A stretch of 37,914 nucleotides of DNA from positions 2,605,412 through 2,643,325 of the forward strand of contig NC_057752.1 of NCBI RefSeq assembly GCF_004010195.1, given 5' to 3'. Each line of letters starts with the position of its first letter. The first letter of the stretch is position 1. Below, piece after piece: positions 1-34,675 of this stretch. The translations under genes and the position numbers were made by a program. The notes beneath the pieces are model-generated. The model did not search any database and was not told the DNA's origin. It saw only the letters and a program-made list of their open reading frames with translations. The DNA comes from Chiloscyllium plagiosum. Its lineage: Eukaryota.

Positions 1-236
1 TCTACATATTGTGTCAGGAAACCCTCCTGCACACATTGGACAACACCGACCCATCTAACGAACTCGAGCTATAGCTTTCCCAATCAATATCAGGAAAGTT
101 AAAGACCCCCATAACAACCACCCTATTACTTTCACTCTTCTCCTGAATCATCCTCTCAATCCTTTCTGCTACGTCTCTAGGACTATTAGGAGGCCTGTAC
201 AAAACTCCTAACAGGGTGACCTCACCTTTCCTATTC
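1..236 (-). mobile_element. CR1-like LINE fragment, APE endonuclease region of ORF2
   Basis: Minus translation YRPPNS...VVVMG(V)FNFPDIDW matches the YRPP and GDFNxPDIDW motifs of CR1 endonucleases; degenerate. Confidence 0.85.
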
Positions 237-479: not shown

Positions 480-570
480 CGAACTGAAAATGTGTTGCTG
501 GAAAAGCGCAGCAGGTCAGGCAGCATCCAAGGAGCAGGAGAATCGATGTTTCAGGCATAAGCCATTCATT
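480..570 (-). mobile_element. Penelope-like terminal repeat (pLTR) fragment with decayed hammerhead
   Basis: ctgaaaatgtgttgctggaaaagcgcagcaggtcaggcagcatccaaggagcaggagaatcg is shared with 28615, 32281 and (rc) 24325-24385; flanked by ATTCATTGACC at 469-479 and 564-574. Confidence 0.8.
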
Positions 571-1929: not shown

Positions 1930-2131
1930 GAAGCAAATTGCTGCTGGTGCTGGAATCTGAATGGGAAACAAAAAAATGAGATCACAGCGGGTCAGGCAGC
2001 ATCCATGGAGAAAAACAAACGAATGTTTAGAGTTTAGATGACTCTTCATCTCTGAAGCTCGAAACGTTAGCTTGCTTTGTCTCTATGGATGCTGCCTGAC
2101 CCACTGTGATCTCTGCATGTTTTTGTTTTCT
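1930..2131. mobile_element. Older Penelope-derived fold-back (inverted pLTR pair)
   Basis: Arms gagatcacagcgggtcaggcagcatccatggaga (1978-2011) and tctctatggatgctgcctgacccactgtgatctc (2080-2113) are reverse complements with 2 mismatches; ctcttcatc and ctcgaaacgtt hammerhead remnants lie between. Confidence 0.75.
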
Positions 2132-3469: not shown

Positions 3470-3577
3470 ATTCCTGATGAAGGGCTCTTGCCCGAAATGA
3501 CGTCTATTCTCCTGCTCCTCGGATGCTGCCTGACCTGCTGTGCTTTTCCAGCACCACACTCTCTCCTCTATTTCTCC
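3470..3577 (+). mobile_element. Solo Penelope-like pLTR with hammerhead core
   Basis: ttcCTGATGAAGGGCtcttGCCCGAAAtgaCGTC then ggatgctgcctgacctgctg; flanked by TACCTGAGCAATGGT (3451-3465) and TACCTAAGCAATGGT (3578-3592). Confidence 0.82.
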
Positions 3578-12615: not shown

Positions 12616-12929
12616 TGCAGCCTCCCACCACCATACTGTTGGCCCAGAACCGGTCTCTGAATACTGTCTGCTTGCCCTATGCCATCAGTGAATGGGACTG
12701 CCTTTCTTTGCTTACTCTTACAAAGCTGAAACTAAGGGAGTTCTGCCTCTTGGAAACACCACCGTCCACTCTTGTGGTTGGCAGGGTGTTCAACTTCCCA
12801 TAGCAACCATTTGATAGGGAGTTTGAGAAATTCTCTTGTGGTCCCAGCCTTGCGACCTTAGCCACCACCAGCACATACTGGTCAGACATTCTGGGGGGGC
12901 ACAGAAAATAGGATGGGTACCCAGCCTCA

Positions 12930-21534: not shown

Positions 21535-22556
21535 ATGACTCTAGATAGAGGCCATTCAGTCCATGTCTGCACCTGCTCTTCAAACCAGCATCATTCCCTA
21601 ATGCCAATCTCCTGCATTTACACTGCACTCCATTTCTATCCAAATAACCATCCAATGGCTCATTTCTGATGAAGGGCTTATGCCCAAAACGTTGATTCTC
21701 CTGCTCCTCGGATGCTGCCTGATCTGCTGTACATTCCTGCACAATACTCTCGACTCTGATCTCCAGCATCTGCATCCTCACTTTCCCTTAGTTGATTTTA
21801 ACTCTAATGCAAAGCCTCTTCCAAGGATGCCTATCTTGAAGAAGTTCTCCTCCCCTCTCGACAAGGATCTCAGTGAGTCTCTTTCTCACTGCATTCCCCT
21901 GGTTATATCTGCTTTGAAGCTCTTCAGCCACGTCCTGAAACAGACTCACTACCACAGCCACATCTCCTTCCTCAGTGCCTACCTACAGAATCGACTGATC
22001 CTGCATTGACTCCGGATCACATTCAGACCAACACAATTTGGATCTGAACAGGACAACTAGTACCTACTACAAATCTGAACCCTTCAGAAACTGTTCTCCT
22101 TCTGGATCCTCCGCTCCACACTTGCAGCCATGTGTCGCCACCTAATCTTGTCATTCCTCATGAAGGGCTTATGCCCGAAACGTCAATTCTCCTGCTCCTT
22201 GGATGCTGCCTGAACTGCTATGCTTTTCCAGCACCATATTGTCGACTCTGATCTCCAGCATCTGCAGTCCTCCCTTTCTCCTAAGCATCCAATGCCCCTC
22301 TTAAATGCTTCAATTGAACCTGCATTTCCAGGCATTGTATTCCAGACCCGAAGTGCTTGCTGGGTGAGAAAGGGTTTTCCTTGCTACATATTTGCTTGTT
22401 GTGTAAAACACTTTAAAACACACACTCTGCTTCTTGATCTGTTTCCAAATGGGAACATATTCTCCCCATCCACTCTGTCCAAGCCCCTCATGATTTTGAA
22501 AACTTCTGTCAAAATCCCCTCATAGCCTTCTCCTTTCCAAGGAAAACTGTCCCAAT
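21535..22556 (-). mobile_element. CR1 3' fragment split by a Penelope-like insertion (21535-21657 and 22286-22556)
   Basis: The CR1 rc tail resumes after the insert; CATCCAATG is duplicated at 21649-21657 and 22286-22294. Confidence 0.75.
21660..22285 (+). mobile_element. Penelope-like element remnant: pLTR - ORF N-terminus - pLTR
   Basis: Direct repeats of about 130 bp (21660-21790 and 22151-22283), each with a hammerhead core carrying one substitution; the internal frame HSHISFLSAYLQNRLILH resembles the PLE N-terminal HxxFLxxCxxxxLIPxGL motif. Confidence 0.85.
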
Positions 22557-24244: not shown

Positions 24245-24386
24245 GTCCCTCCTCCCTACCTTTTATCTTAGCCTGCATGGCACACTCTCCTCATTCCTGA
24301 AGAAGGGCTCATGCCCGAAACGTCGATTCTCCTCCTTGGATGCTGCCTGACCTGCTGCGCTTTTCCAGCAACACATTTTCAGCTCT
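24245..24386 (+). mobile_element. Penelope-like pLTR with intact hammerhead core (24297-24324)
   Basis: attcCTGAAGAAGGGCtcatGCCCGAAACGTCgatt; near-identical to the rc of 28615-28756. Confidence 0.88.
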
Positions 24387-25308
24387 GCTTTTCTACACTC
24401 AACCCCCACCCTCAACCCCTCGCTGCTCCCTTCCCAACCCTCAGTCACAGACTCCTAACAAAATGTTCCCTGTCGGCATCCAAATAAAAGGACTGACGTG
24501 AAGGCCTGTAAAATGTCAGCTATAAACTTGGACATACGTCTGTTGATTTCACTGAAGTCAACTGATGTCTCTCCAAGTGCATAGTTGACACTTTACAGAC
24601 CCCCACCTCCCCCAGTTACAGGCAATCTATCGCGCAAGGAGAACGTGGTGCCTTTTTCACGCATTTAACCTGCTGTTGAAAGGGATAAAGGATGCGGTTT
24701 GCAAGCGCAGATAGCTTTGTACGTTTGCTTCCCAAATCCACCCACTGGCTTACATCACCGCACATTTGGAAGTATTTAGCCAAAGCTGAGTTGCCAATGT
24801 TTTGACAGAAACTGAAACCGTCACGTTGCATTGAGAGGGGAGTCAAAAGTGTGGTCAATCCTATCAGCAACAGAGAGACTTTGTGCCACTGTTGAGGTGA
24901 GGAAGTGAAACGAGTACCTGGGGTAGGGCTAAATGTTTCCACCATCACCCCTCCCTGGGCAGAGGTCATATTGGGGGGTCATCATGGCAGTGTGCCCCTG
25001 CCCAGTCAACTGGTAAGCAAACGTGGCTCAAGTGACTCTTGAGTGTCGGTCTTTCCTTTGTCCCGTGGCCAACTCATTTTTGAATAACTGCTATAAAAAT
25101 GTAGAAAGCTTTTTTTTTATAATTTCATACCTCAAGTCATTTTATGGTTTCCTCACAGCGTGTCTAGGTTATTTAATCCAACATCTCGTGAGACATGGTT
25201 GATGACTTCAGCCATTTTTTTTGCAGCGCCATGCAAACATGTCTCCAAGCGATGGGTTTCATTCCAATTTCTCTCAAACCATCTCCCCAAGGTTTGGAGA
25301 ATGACCAG

Positions 25309-25860: not shown

Positions 25861-26915
25861 GACTTCCATGTCATCTCTCCAGCTGGTTCACTAAACCAAC
25901 CTTTTTGGGGAACCAGGAGGTCCAAATGAGATACTCCTCCTCGATGTACAGTCTCAGCTTGCCACCTCTCGGGCCCCCATTTGCCTTGTTTCCCTCACTG
26001 ACCTCTCCCCATCCCTGGGTGCACACCACAAATGTACCCAATAGCCAAACTGACATTGCACTTGGCCAAATTTCTCAAGACCCCAACTGATGTGCAGGGC
26101 TAGGCATCACCGATTGTCAGCTTTATAGAAATGAAGCCTGAGGCCTAACTTCTGGTGAGCCTTCTCTGACCGCTTCAGACGGTCCCCATATTCCTAACCC
26201 CACCAGATATTCCTAGTAGTAGTAAGATTCAAATTGCCTGCAGACTATGAAGTCAGCTGGGTCTTATGGCCTTAAAGGGACAGTTTACATGTGAGCAATG
26301 GCACTCCTGTGTCTGTCCATGTCAAAACAGCATATTGTCAGATTTCCTGAGCACACATCCACAGGAGATCTACTCATTTACAAGGCAAAACAAAACTTCA
26401 GACTCTATGTGGGACAGATCTAAGAGCAACTGGTCTTTTGAAAGTTTTATCCTTTTTCACATTCCAGTTTTAATCTTGTTTGGCCCATGGGAGGGGGATG
26501 TCATCTGTGGAATGTGACTGGTGAGGGCTGAGTAACTGAGATGGTAATTTTAGAAGGAAATATTGGCACCTCCGAGAAGCATATCTGTTGCTCGAGGGGA
26601 ATTTTTAATGTGCGATTCACTTTTTTTCAGTAGACTAACTTGAGGCGAGTATGAAGGCCCACACTATTCTGTCATTTCCCACGTTCTTTTGAGGAACAAA
26701 TAGTATTACATTGAATATTTCTCAAATTCTAATTAGGCCACAACTGGAGTGAAGGATTTTCTCTCCGAGGGGAGAGGGGGGCGGGTGTAGAAGCTGGGAT
26801 TGTTGGAGTGAAGGAGATTGATCAAGGTGTACAAGATTATGAGAAGGTTAAACAAAGCTGTTCTCTTTGGCTGACAAGACAACGACTAGGGGGTCAAGGA
26901 TTTCTGATTTTGGGT

Positions 26916-27170
26916 TGAAACTTTATTGCTGGAACAGCACAGCAGGTCAGGCAGCATCCAGGGAACAGGAGATTCGACGTTTCGGGCACAGGCCCTTCTT
27001 CAGGAATCCTGAAGAAGGGCCTGTGCCCGAAACGTCGAATCATTCCTGAAGAAGGGCCTGTGCCCGAAACGTCGAATCTCCTGTTCCCTGGATGCTGCCT
27101 GACCTGCTGTGCTGTTCCAGCAATAAAGTTTCAACTTTGATCTCCAGCATCTGCAGACCTCACTTTCTCC
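26916..27170. mobile_element. Young Penelope-like fold-back pLTR insertion with three hammerhead cores
   Basis: Perfect 94-bp IR (26914-27007 / 27042-27135); 15-bp TSD TTTCTGATTTTGGGT (26901-26915, 27171-27185). Confidence 0.92.
27042..27077 (+). ncRNA. Minimal type I hammerhead ribozyme motif
   Basis: AUUC-CUGAAGA-A-GGGC(CUGU)GCCC-GAAAC-GUC-GAAU: stem I AUUC/GAAU, stem II 4 bp, palindromic ACGU stem III. Confidence 0.8.
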
Positions 27171-28299
27171 TTTCTGATTTTGGGTGCAAGGTGAGCTGAG
27201 GGCTGGAATGTGAAGGAGAACTATTTTACTGAGTATATCCTGGAACCTGCTGTCTGGAAAATCAATGGAGAATGATTTCCAAAACAAATTTGGCAGGCAT
27301 CTGAGGGGAAGAAATGAACTACAATACAGGAATAGAGCCAGGAATGCGACTGACTGGGTGACTCGAGTGAGGTGCTGACTGAACTCCTTCTGTACTGTGC
27401 AGACCTATGATGAGAGTAAAGGTACCTTTCTTGGAGGAGAGAGTTCTTTATCAGCCTGTTGGGGCAAGCCTCTGTTGCTCATTCCTCTCCATGTGCTTGC
27501 TTGGGATTCTTTCTCTCCTTCCTTACCCTACCCTCGCACCAGTTGGGGAACTTTGTAATTCTGGACATTTCGAGGAAACCTCTTCACATTTAAAGGTGGA
27601 GGTGGGGAGTGTGTCAGATGAGCCAAGCTATTCTGGAATATTTCCTGATATAAATCCAGAACTTCCCTCAAAAAGTTGTCAAGGCCTGGGGTTAGCTGTA
27701 AATCTGAAGACCAAGATTGGTGAGATTTTTGATCGTCGAGGATATTTCAGAGGGATGAGAGAATTGAGATGCGGATTTGAAGTGGAAAACTGGAAGAAAC
27801 TCGATGGGCCTGGACGGCCTTCCCATGTTCACTAGTCTTTCAAATTCAAACCGCCTTTCCACAGAAACACAGCCCAGTTCGCAATCGTTTGAAAATCTTT
27901 GATGAAATCACCTCCAAGTCAATGCTTTTGTCGAGGAAGATGTCTCAATTTCCCTGGTCTGTTGTAGGCAGCACTAAAGGTGACATGAGGAAAAACTTGC
28001 TGTTTCACATAGAGAGGCTGGGGTCGGGATTGTGCTGCTGAAAGAGTGTGCGAGAAGCAGTTTAAATTCTTAGAAGAGAACTGGTAACTTCTCTGAATTG
28101 AAAAGGTTTGCAGAACTATGGGGAATAGGTGGAGGCATACAGAGTGGTGTGTTGCTCTTGTAGAGAAAGCCAGGACAGACACAAGGGTTATCGTGAGCAG
28201 GACGGATCAAATGGGGCCAATTGCCAACCAATCGGTCTACCCTGAATCATCAGTGTGGTGATAGAGGTGTCATCAATAGCGCTAACAAGCACGGTTCTA

Positions 28300-28614: not shown

Positions 28615-28773
28615 CTGAAAATATGTTGCTGGAAAAGCGCAGCAGGTCAGGCAGCATCCAAGGAGCAGGAGAATCGACGTTTCGGGCGTGAGCCCTTCTT
28701 CAGGAATGAGGAAAGTGTACCAAGCAGGCTAAGATAAAAGGTAGGGAGGAGGGACTTGGGGGAGGGGCGTTGG
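28615..28773 (-). mobile_element. Penelope-like pLTR with intact hammerhead (28676-28703), running into the gap
   Basis: rc CTGAAGAAGGGCtcacGCCCGAAACGTC. Confidence 0.88.
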
Positions 28774-31127: not shown

Positions 31128-31430
31128 CAGAATCCATACAGTGTGGAAGCAGGCCATTCAGCCCATCGAGTGCATACTGATTGTCCAAAGAGTGTCCCAC
31201 CCAGACTCTCCCTCTTACATTTTCCCTAAAACCCTGCATTTTCCATTGCTAATCCACCTGGCCTGCACATCTTTGGACTGTGGGAGGAAACTGGAGAAAT
31301 CAGAGGAAACTCATTCTGACACGGGGAGAATGTGCAAACCCCACACAGACAGTCGCCTGAGGCTGAAATCAAACTCGGGTCATTGGTTCTATGAGGCAGC
31401 AGTGCTAACCACTAAGCCACTCTGTCACCC
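31128..31430 (-). mobile_element. HE1-like V-SINE
   Basis: rc copy with head tgaggcagcagtgctaaccactaagccac. Confidence 0.88.
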
Positions 31431-31432
31431 CA

Positions 31433-32095
31433 AATTATTGCTAGACTATTAATCCAGAGACCCAGATAATGTTTTGGGGACCTGGACTCTAATCTCGCCA
31501 TGGCAGATGGTAAAGTTTAAATTCAATAAAAAATCTGGAATTTGGGACGGCACGGTGGCTCAGTGGTTACCACTGCTGCCTCACAGCACCAGGGACCCGG
31601 GTTCGATTCCAGCCTCGGGCAGCTGTCTGTGTGGAGTTTGCACGTTCACCCCATGTCTGCGTGGGTTTCCTCCAGTACTCTGGTTTCTTCCCACAATCCA
31701 AAAGATGTGCACATCAGGTTAATTGGCCGTGTTAAATTGTCCGTAGTGTTAGGTGCATTAGGCAGGGGTAAATATAGGTTTGGGGTGGGTTAGTCTTCAG
31801 AGGGTCGGTGTGGACTTGTTGGGCTGAGGGGCCTGTTTCCATACTGTAGGGAATCTAATCTAAAAAGAGTCTAATGATGACTATGAATCATTGCCGATTG
31901 TCAGGAAAGACCCATCTGATTCACTATAATGTCCTTTAGGGAAGGACATGTTTGTGCTTACCTGGTCTGGCCTACGTGTGACTCCAGACCCATAGCAATG
32001 TGGCTGACTCTCCACTGCCCTCTGGGCAATTAGGGATGGACAATAAATGCTGGCCCAGCCTGAGGTATCCACAGCCCATAAGTGACTATGAAAAA
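31433..32095 (+). mobile_element. Family A tRNA-SINE split by HE1 (31433-31543 and 31866-32095)
   Basis: aaatctggaatt | aagagtctaatgatgac continuity across the insert. Confidence 0.82.
31545..31863 (+). mobile_element. HE1-like V-SINE, full length
   Basis: A box TGGCTCAGTGG, B box GGTTCGATTCC, V-domain-like core, CR1-like tail ending aatctaatcta. Confidence 0.92.
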
Positions 32096-32217: not shown

Positions 32218-32675
32218 ACTGGTGGCATTGTGGTAATCTCAGTGCATTAATAATCCAGAACCCCAAACTAACTTTCTGGGGTGAAAATGTGTTGCTGGAA
32301 AAGCGCAGCAGGTCAGGCAGCATCCAAGGAACAGGAGAATCGACGTTTTGGGCATAAGCCCTTCTTCAGGAACTTTCTGGGATTCCTCCTTTCTGGGGAC
32401 CTGGGTTCGAATCCCACCATGGCAGATGGTGGGATCTGAATTCAATAAAATTCTGGAATAAGAAGCTAGTCTAAAAGTGACATTTTCAATTGTTGTAAAA
32501 CCCTATCTGATTCATTACTGTCTTTTGCGGAAGAAAATCTTACCTGGCCTGGTCTATGTGTGACTCCAAATCCACAGAATGGGATTGACTTTGAACTGCC
32601 CTCCAGGCAACTGGGATGAGTAATGAATGTAGGGTGCAGACACCAATGGGCCATTCTGTGAAAGAATTAAACAAA
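32218..32675 (+). mobile_element. Family A tRNA-SINE split by a pLTR
   Basis: Head ggtggcattgtggtaat...; B box GGTTCGAATCC at 32404 after the insert. Confidence 0.8.
32281..32370 (-). mobile_element. Solo Penelope-like pLTR with hammerhead (one core substitution)
   Basis: Flanked by AACTTTCTGGG at 32270-32280 and 32371-32381. Confidence 0.88.
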
Positions 32676-34528: not shown

Positions 34529-34675
34529 GAGGTAAAAACAATGACTGCAGATGCTGGAAACCAGATTCTGGATCAATGGTGCTGGAAGAGCACAGCAGTT
34601 CAGGCAGCATCGAGGAGCTTCAGCAAAATCGACGTTTCGGGCAAAAGCCCTTCATCAGGAATAAAGGCAGAGAGC
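34529..34675 (-). mobile_element. Penelope-like pLTR (distinct subfamily) with intact hammerhead (34631-34658)
   Basis: rc attcCTGATGAAGGGCttttGCCCGAAACGTCgatt. Confidence 0.88.

What the first reader, a model, noticed from the sequence alone, without database searches (positions are those of the whole stretch)
26901..27185. Perfect fold-back insertion holding three hammerhead cores, two of them in tandem
Seen: 15-bp perfect TSD, 94-bp perfect inverted arms, and a 34-bp loop that is itself a third core; the plus-strand cores start 37 nt apart (27009, 27046). Established: these minimal ribozymes need two copies pairing through the ACGU palindrome, and inverted pLTRs are typical of PLE integration. 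Inference: a very recent insertion whose plus transcript could form either an intramolecular double hammerhead or a long dsRNA hairpin, possibly cutting a host pre-mRNA. It also records two template switches, both at the ATTC-CTGA boundary.
Basis: partly seen in the sequence, partly recalled or inferred. Interest (0 to 1): 0.75.

Follow-up and report, generated by a model that had tools for sequence, protein, structure and literature searches.

The report
Penelope stump with stuttered ribozyme core
This 255-base hairpin insert is one of about 2,500 mirror-image stumps left by a young family of Penelope-like jumping genes; its extra ribozyme copy is likely a rare stutter of the copying enzyme, seen at dozens of other sites, and the hairpin is predicted to keep the ribozymes from cutting.

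Summary
The structure is real and as described: 15-bp TSD, 94-bp perfect arms (2 bp shared with the TSD), and three minimal hammerhead cores. A related species has the empty site. It is the 129-nt end of a very abundant Penelope-like element (PLE). The genome holds 11,575 exact cores, 2,498 fold-backs of this subfamily and 59 loci with short tandem cores, 12 of them with this three-core layout. In 39 of 46 fold-backs one arm ends near +94 and the other near +129, never both at one site, which points to priming from both nicked target strands. The extra 37 nt likely arose when the reverse transcriptase ran off the RNA 5' end and restarted just past the ribozyme cut site; at other loci this repeats several times with differing junctions. 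The double-hammerhead fold lies 72 kcal/mol above the hairpin, and no host exon was found, so cutting a pre-mRNA is unsupported. No read spans the 37-nt repeat. The scan already noted two-sided priming and start-site stubs on other DNA; the stutter census is what this adds.

The parts
26901..26915 (+). Left copy of 15-bp target-site duplication; its last two bases (GT) also match the element at +93/+94
   Evidence: single copy at the empty site in organism B
26916..27007 (-). Inverted short arm: element positions +1 to +92 (+94 with the shared GT), ending at the upstream 3' end site
26976..27003 (-). Minimal hammerhead core on the minus strand
   Evidence: motif scan
27008..27041 (+). Extra unit, positions +4 to +37: hammerhead core 1 (27009-27036) plus GAATC; likely reverse-transcriptase re-copy
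27042..27170 (+). Forward unit, positions +1 to +129 of the pLTR end; hammerhead core 2 at 27046-27073
27040..27046 (+). TCATTCC, initiator-like (consensus recalled); A at 27042 is the modal 5' end of the family and likely the capped RNA start; TC is a 2-nt overlap between the two units
27136..27170 (+). 35-nt one-sided PLE 'tail' between the two 3' end sites (+94/95 and +129)
   Evidence: PMC11167929, PMC8557442
27122..27127 (+). AATAAA in the element (mirrored at 26922-26927 on the minus strand)
   Evidence: poly(A)-like loose ends after 27136 in 26 RNA reads
27171..27185 (+). Right copy of 15-bp target-site duplication

Best explanation
This is a single, likely dead insertion of the 129-nt end of an endonuclease-bearing Penelope-like retroelement, likely written from both nicked strands of the target, with one likely stutter of the reverse transcriptase that doubled the hammerhead core; the long hairpin is predicted to keep the cores inactive. 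Steps: (1, inferred) the endonuclease nicks both strands 15 nt apart, giving the TSD (shown). (2, inferred) The bottom-strand end primes at RNA +129 and copies to the RNA 5' end at +1, giving 27042-27170. (3, inferred) The enzyme runs off, restarts at +37, five bases 3' of the uncut ribozyme site, and copies the core again to +4, giving 27008-27041. (4, inferred) The top-strand end, whose GT matches the RNA at +93/94, primes at +94 and copies to +1, giving the antisense arm. (5, inferred) The two cDNA 3' ends are joined through their last bases, leaving the common AGG-AAT-CCT junction (junction shown). The unit has no ORF and no shown function.
For: PLE identity: longer copies join the same end to an endonuclease C-terminus (L046, L056) and, across an internal deletion, to a frame with RT-thumb-like, CxxxxCxxC and IIYCxxCxxCxxxYIG sequence (L070; Pfam GIY-YIG E=4e-4, 21 bits, just under the 22.6 cut-off). 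Two-sided priming: 39 of 46 fold-backs have one arm ending at +88..100 and the other at +124..129; none has both arms at one site, and the other 7 have at least one arm that could not be classed. Solo copies use the two ends equally (20:20, 5 other), so independent choice would give P about 0.5^39. PMC11167929 shows in vitro that a PLE protein cleaves and extends both strands and starts at two internal sites that bound the tail. RNA start at +1: 5' ends cluster at A+1 (68 of 98 core matches start within 3 nt; cores cut shorter could not enter this sample), and 13 of 16 extra bases before A+1 in tandem junctions are G (P=1e-4), as a copied cap would leave. Enzyme-level stutter: deleting the 37 nt gives the standard fold-back junction (1,533 exact matches over several subfamilies), but the ATT before unit 2 is absent from that standard form, so a plain DNA duplication cannot make it. 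Only 17 of 76 junctions have 2 or more bases of overlap; 56 are blunt or carry extra bases. In 9 of 10 loci with several junctions the junctions differ from each other. 21 of 59 tandem loci have no inverted arm, so a hairpin is not needed. Silence: energy gap 71.7 kcal/mol; tandem minimal hammerheads cleave weakly even in vitro (PMC4209133).
Against: All mechanistic steps are read from genomic end patterns, not from biochemistry on this family. No read or contig spans the 37-nt repeat. This locus's own junction has a 2-nt TC overlap. The fold-back sample is the first 46 usable places on one contig, and my reference stopped at +129, so longer arms would also score as +129. The GIY-YIG hit is below Pfam's cut-off, and no full RT was retrieved. 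Folding energies ignore protein, and the anole hammerhead cleaved only with protein present (PMC11167929).
Confidence: 0.72

Rival explanations
1. Self-priming fold-back: one cDNA folds at its 3' end and is copied back, and the endonuclease resolves the intermediate to leave the tail on one side (the reading of PMC3846280 and PMC8557442).
For: Arms share subfamily variants: 27 of 30 have the same loop II and the other 3 differ by single changes or truncation. Palindromic junctions are common. Published proposal.
Against: The short arm ends at the site that also ends solo copies with their own TSD and that matches an in vitro RT start in another PLE (PMC11167929). The commonest junction would need a 1-nt loop, and the spacers vary widely. 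Shared variants also fit one RNA copied twice, or subfamilies active at different times.
Confidence: 0.17
2. The 37-nt repeat is a later DNA-level slip or an assembly mis-join through a repeat graph; the true allele is a standard two-core fold-back.
For: No spanning read. Gapped assembly (981 N in the window). 2-nt TC overlap. The identical GAATC-ATTCC junction occurs 7 times in the genome.
Against: The ATT before unit 2 is not in the standard fold-back, so simple slippage cannot make it. 76 such junctions occur with varied, partly untemplated bases, and a second subfamily has 109.
Confidence: 0.1
3. The tandem cores act as an intramolecular double hammerhead that cuts a host transcript, or seed a retrozyme-like unit.
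For: A fully nested double-hammerhead fold can be drawn: stem I of core 1 from 27003-27008 with 27074-27079 (one A-A mismatch), 4-bp ACGU stem III, and a 3-bp stem I hairpin for core 2. Dimeric and trimeric minimal hammerheads showed low cleavage in PMC4209133.
Against: The fold is 6.3 kcal/mol above the minimum on its own and 71.7 above it in the whole insert; at every transcript length tested one core is fully paired. The tandem is 0.7% of cores (76 of 11,575), with scattered lengths and separate TSDs, i.e. not an amplifying unit. No Pfam exon was found near it.
Confidence: 0.05

Closest known systems
EN+ PLE insertion unit with inverted 5'-truncated pLTR, partial tandem and one-sided 30-40 bp tail (Adineta Pen2a_Av, PMC3846280 passages; Fig. 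2 legend of PMC8557442; D. virilis Penelope, PMC2377424 passages)
   Same: Head-to-head arms, palindromic junction, tail on one arm, TSD, no poly(A) end.
   Different: No ORF, only the 129-nt end. The upstream tandem unit is cut at its 3' side at +37, not at the tail, so it holds the ribozyme core alone.
Anolis Poseidon PAc (PMC11167929; parts 1-2 of 4 read)
   Same: Two internal RT start sites bounding the tail; both target strands extended; uncut RNA is the template; weak, protein-assisted hammerhead.
   Different: Different clade: the CxxxxCxxC linker in L070 suggests Neptune or Nematis type. The parts I read do not discuss inverted insertions or re-copied cores.
Minimal hammerheads of metazoan PLEs (PMC4209133; parts 1-2 of 4 read)
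   Same: Type I, no stem III loop, palindromic 15.2-16.2, extra base between 9 and 10.1, G10.1-C11.1, 4-bp stem I; opposite-strand pairs also reported.
   Different: Natural 37-nt spacing of two cores, buried in a 92-bp hairpin; activity not tested here.
Non-LTR retrozymes (bioRxiv 10.64898/2026.07.22.740005; part 1 of 5 and passages read)
   Same: Two consecutive units each with a type I hammerhead, derived from a PLE pLTR; would probably pass that paper's two-unit rule (energy filter not applied here).
   Different: Retrozyme units are thought to be cut-site-to-cut-site monomers that amplify by rolling circle. Here the unit runs from the likely RNA start to 5 nt past the cut site, varies between loci, and shows no amplification.
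L1 twin priming (recalled) and R2 template jumping with untemplated bases (PMC8857657, abstract and outline)
   Same: Second target strand primes an inverted cDNA; the enzyme continues on a new template after running off, often adding extra bases.
   Different: L1 twin-primed halves copy adjacent RNA parts, while here both copy the same 5' tip from two fixed sites. The jumps here land inside the RNA, not at a known 3' end.

Membership tests
EN+ Penelope-like element (derived insertion) | GIY-YIG endonuclease with two Cys between the motifs, linked to this pLTR end | tested here: met
   L070 frame IIYCIRCSRCGLLYIG, Pfam PF01541 E=4e-4 but 21 bits versus cut-off 22.6; L046 and L056 link the EN C-terminus to the end
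EN+ Penelope-like element (derived insertion) | PLE-type RT domain in a full-length partner | not tested
   Only a thumb-like stretch seen in L070 (label recalled)
EN+ Penelope-like element (derived insertion) | Inverted 5'-truncated copy and 30-40 bp tail at one end only | tested here: met
   35-nt tail on the right arm only; 39 of 46 fold-backs alike
EN+ Penelope-like element (derived insertion) | TSD at a previously empty site | tested here: met
   15 bp; empty site in organism B; family mode 15 bp
Neptune/Nematis clade | Extra Zn-finger-like motif between RT and EN (PMC8557442) | tested here: inconclusive
   CNRRRCNTC seen in L070; no tree built
Minimal PLE hammerhead | CUGANGA and GAAA cores, stems I and II, palindromic 15.2-16.2, extra base at 9/10.1 | tested here: met
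   Core 1's own stem I has an A-A mismatch. No Rfam hit
Minimal PLE hammerhead | Self-cleavage as a dimer | not testable with these tools
   Folding predicts the cores are sequestered
Non-LTR retrozyme | Fixed tandem monomer that propagates as a unit | tested here: not met
   76 junctions at 59 loci with varied unit ends and separate targets
Non-LTR retrozyme | Circular RNA from self-cleavage | not testable with these tools
   Poly(A) short-read runs only

The most novel reading that the evidence does not exclude
This telomerase-related reverse transcriptase re-uses the 5' tip of its RNA: after reaching the capped start it restarts at preferred points and can do so several times in a row. The main restart point (+3 to +5 past the cut site; 33 of 59 loci, and +3 is also the commonest point in a second subfamily with a different sequence there) is the strand that pairs with the RNA 5' end in hammerhead stem I. 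The stutters would then be a genomic footprint of the folded, possibly dimeric hammerhead in the inserting complex, and a route by which tandem-ribozyme repeats could be born.
Probability: 0.3. Interest if true: 0.6.

Novelty: new variant of a known kind. Interest (0 to 1): 0.3.

Why it matters
The locus itself is an ordinary retroelement scar with no shown function. Its value is as one of dozens of natural stutter products. How PLEs form tandem and inverted ends is called undefined in PMC8557442, and PMC2377424 leaves frequent tandem formation to future work. The junction census gives positions (+94, +129, +1 with extra G, restart at +35 to +37) that a reconstituted reaction like that of PMC11167929 could test directly. 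If restarts follow stem I pairing, the hammerhead would have a structural role in insertion apart from cleavage.

Tried and rejected
Rfam gathering scan of the window: 0 hits; E-value scan of 26800-27300: only hairpin-type chance hits far below the gathering score. DNA search of the genome with the 131-nt end returned nothing because very common words are skipped; patterns were used instead. Host gene: 150 of 227 non-repeat frames of the window and 100 of 223 from 60 kb of flanks gave no convincing Pfam hit (two weak hits below cut-off). Short exons and large introns would be missed, so intronic location is neither shown nor excluded. RNA: no RNA holder listed; 217 reads of X21 (about 2% of the run) lay only on the repeat and none on the flanks, X22 laid none, and no pile-up of read ends was seen. 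This is too shallow to show silence or absence of cleavage. Polymorphism: no empty allele among organism A runs X1, X2, X5, X8, X9, but X5 and X8 did not bridge either junction. 'GAA sequence preference' as the cause of the +3 restart peak: weakened, since +3 is also the top position where the sequence is GAT (19 of the 100 listed of 109, counted by eye). Stem I as the sole cause: rejected, because there are further peaks at +11/+12 (20 of 100) and +20 (8 of 100), and about 45 of 55 matches at -8 to -4 (by eye; many could be loop inversions or GAA slips). Restarts exactly at the cut site (6 of 76; 12 of 100) are too confounded by TC overlap and CpG decay to show cleavage in vivo. Re-copies with spacers over 30 nt were not counted, so the background further 3' is unknown. 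Lunse et al. (PMC5785218) is not held; known only through PMC6765202 passages. Literature searches listed no paper on re-copied PLE hammerhead cores or twin priming in PLEs; subscription papers and supplements were not seen, including those of PMC11167929 and the bioRxiv preprint, which could bear on this.

Full report
Observation. The window holds a 255-nt insert (26916-27170) between two identical 15-mers. Reading left to right it has an inverted arm, a 34-nt unit and a 129-nt forward unit. Numbering the forward unit from the A of ATTCC (27042 = +1), the inverted arm is +1..+92 (+94 counting two bases shared with the TSD), the middle unit is +4..+37, and the last 35 nt (+95..+129) occur only on the right. 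Each piece has CUGAAGA, an extra A, a 4-bp stem II, GAAA and CGUC, matching the minimal PLE hammerhead described in PMC4209133 (parts 1-2 of 4 read). Rfam does not detect it.

Reality and age. A 2,630-nt contig of related organism B joins 26900 to 27171 with a single TSD copy, so the site was empty and the TSD is exactly 15 bp. Organism A runs X1 and X2, which differ from the window at flank SNPs, enter the left arm by 22 nt and the tail by 20 nt; X9, from another study, enters the tail by 23 nt. These overlaps are short of the tool's 31-letter bar, and nothing spans the inner repeat. Flank divergence to organism B is 16 of 831 letters, and perfect arms have P about 0.17 even at the age of that split. 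The insertion is therefore lineage-specific, not shown to be very recent or polymorphic.

Family. The exact 34-nt core occurs 11,575 times in the 3.56-Gb genome, which is shark-type (label recalled and taken from scan notes; not tested). Head-to-head pairs of this subfamily with a spacer up to 30 nt occur at 2,498 places, and the exact 25-nt junction seen here occurs 1,533 times across subfamilies. Longer copies tie the end to a GIY-YIG endonuclease C-terminus (L046, L056, L070; Pfam score just below cut-off), and some continue past +129 into shared downstream sequence (L067, L089, L188), so +94 and +129 are internal to the RNA. Inverted truncated pLTRs, palindromic junctions and a one-sided 30-40 bp tail are described as typical of PLEs (PMC3846280 and PMC8557442, passages; PMC2377424, passages).

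How the fold-back forms. Of 46 fold-backs examined (from the first 50 listed on contig C1; four not taken), 39 have one arm ending at +88..100 and the other at +124..129. None has both arms at one site, 7 have an arm cut short or misaligned, and TSDs are mostly 12-17 bp with mode 15. In a mixed-subfamily set the tail was on one arm only in 26 of 30, scored on both in 3 and on neither in 1 by a loose motif test. Solo copies end at the two sites equally (20:20:5 of 45). PMC11167929 (parts 1-2 of 4 read) found that an anole PLE protein nicks and extends both strands, starts at two internal sites bounding the tail, and uses uncut RNA. The simplest reading is one priming event from each nicked strand, one at each start site, with the cDNA 3' ends joined at the RNA 5' tip. 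The top strand of the left arm is antisense to the RNA and begins with a GT shared with the TSD, as priming by that strand would give. Self-priming (PMC3846280) remains a rival. Earlier scan notes reached the same reading on other DNA; I had stated it before the first look-up, and they are not independent evidence.

The 5' tip. 68 of 98 core matches begin within 3 nt of A+1 (copies cut inside the core could not enter this sample), in an initiator-like TCATTCC. Where a tandem unit starts exactly at A+1 with an extra base, that base is G in 13 of 16, as copying of a cap would leave. In solo copies the base before A+1 showed no G excess (3 of 10). A capped start at +1 is an inference.

The extra core. 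Short tandem cores occur at 76 junctions in 59 loci of this subfamily (0.7% of cores). 38 loci also have an inverted arm, and 12, including this one, have an intact inverted core plus two or more sense cores. A second subfamily has 109 junctions. The junctions are mostly blunt or carry extra bases (56 of 76), differ within 9 of 10 multi-junction loci, and here include an ATT that the standard fold-back lacks. This points to the reverse transcriptase running off the RNA start and restarting internally, sometimes repeatedly, rather than to DNA slippage. The upstream unit includes GAATC beyond the cut site, so its template was uncut. Restarts cluster 3-5 nt past the cut site (33 of 59 loci; 29 of 51 among units starting near +1, P=8e-9 against an even spread), the strand that pairs with the RNA 5' end in stem I, and +3 is also the top position in the second subfamily (19 of 100 by eye). 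Against a purely stem I explanation, other peaks exist at +11/12, +20 and -8..-4, and spacers over 30 nt were not surveyed.

Function. A nested double hammerhead can be drawn on 27003-27079 (-11.3 kcal/mol), but it is 6.3 above the minimum fold alone, 29.2 above it with 13 nt more of the arm, and 71.7 above it in the whole insert. During plus-strand transcription core 1 pairs with the upstream arm first, and core 2 replaces it later. The minus strand has one core, also in the hairpin. Tandem minimal hammerheads cleave only weakly in vitro (PMC4209133; review passages in PMC6765202). No Pfam exon was found in 150 window frames or 100 flank frames, and the shallow RNA lay was uninformative. Any read-through RNA would most likely form a 92-bp hairpin rather than cut itself.

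Verdict. The locus is a known kind of PLE insertion with an uncommon but recurrent stutter. Interest is 0.3, resting on the family-level restart pattern as a testable clue to PLE copying, not on this copy.

Noticed in passing
window 485-567, 3470-3553, 21662-21789, 22153-22282, 24293-24387, 28616-28707, 32282-32372, 34545-34662: Eight older copies (79-89% identity) of the same element end; 24 BLAST pieces of it lie in 98 kb around the locus.
   Followed up: partly
window 1966-2128: Decayed fold-back (79% self-identity) of a different, related PLE-like end with hammerhead-like remnants.
   Followed up: no
window 31129-31856: Old 730-nt inverted arrangement (68% self-identity) of another repeat also found at 12929, 14271, 16246 and 18212.
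   Followed up: no
window 27122-27136: The young subfamily carries AATAAA; 26 RNA reads of X21, likely from other copies, leave the element after 27136 with a poly(A)-like consensus (agreement 0.61), so insertions may supply poly(A) signals.
   Followed up: no
L119, L091, L075, L034, L138: Loci with four or more successive core units whose junctions differ in untemplated bases.
   Followed up: partly
L032 / L088 (G000:C6:74179367): Two cores only, ending at GTCGAA, flanked by an about 60-nt duplication of host sequence; no downstream pLTR part.
   Followed up: no
L048/L049 and L060: Two near-identical long fold-backs on C1 appear to share the same flank, suggesting a segmental copy or a haplotype duplicate.
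   Followed up: no
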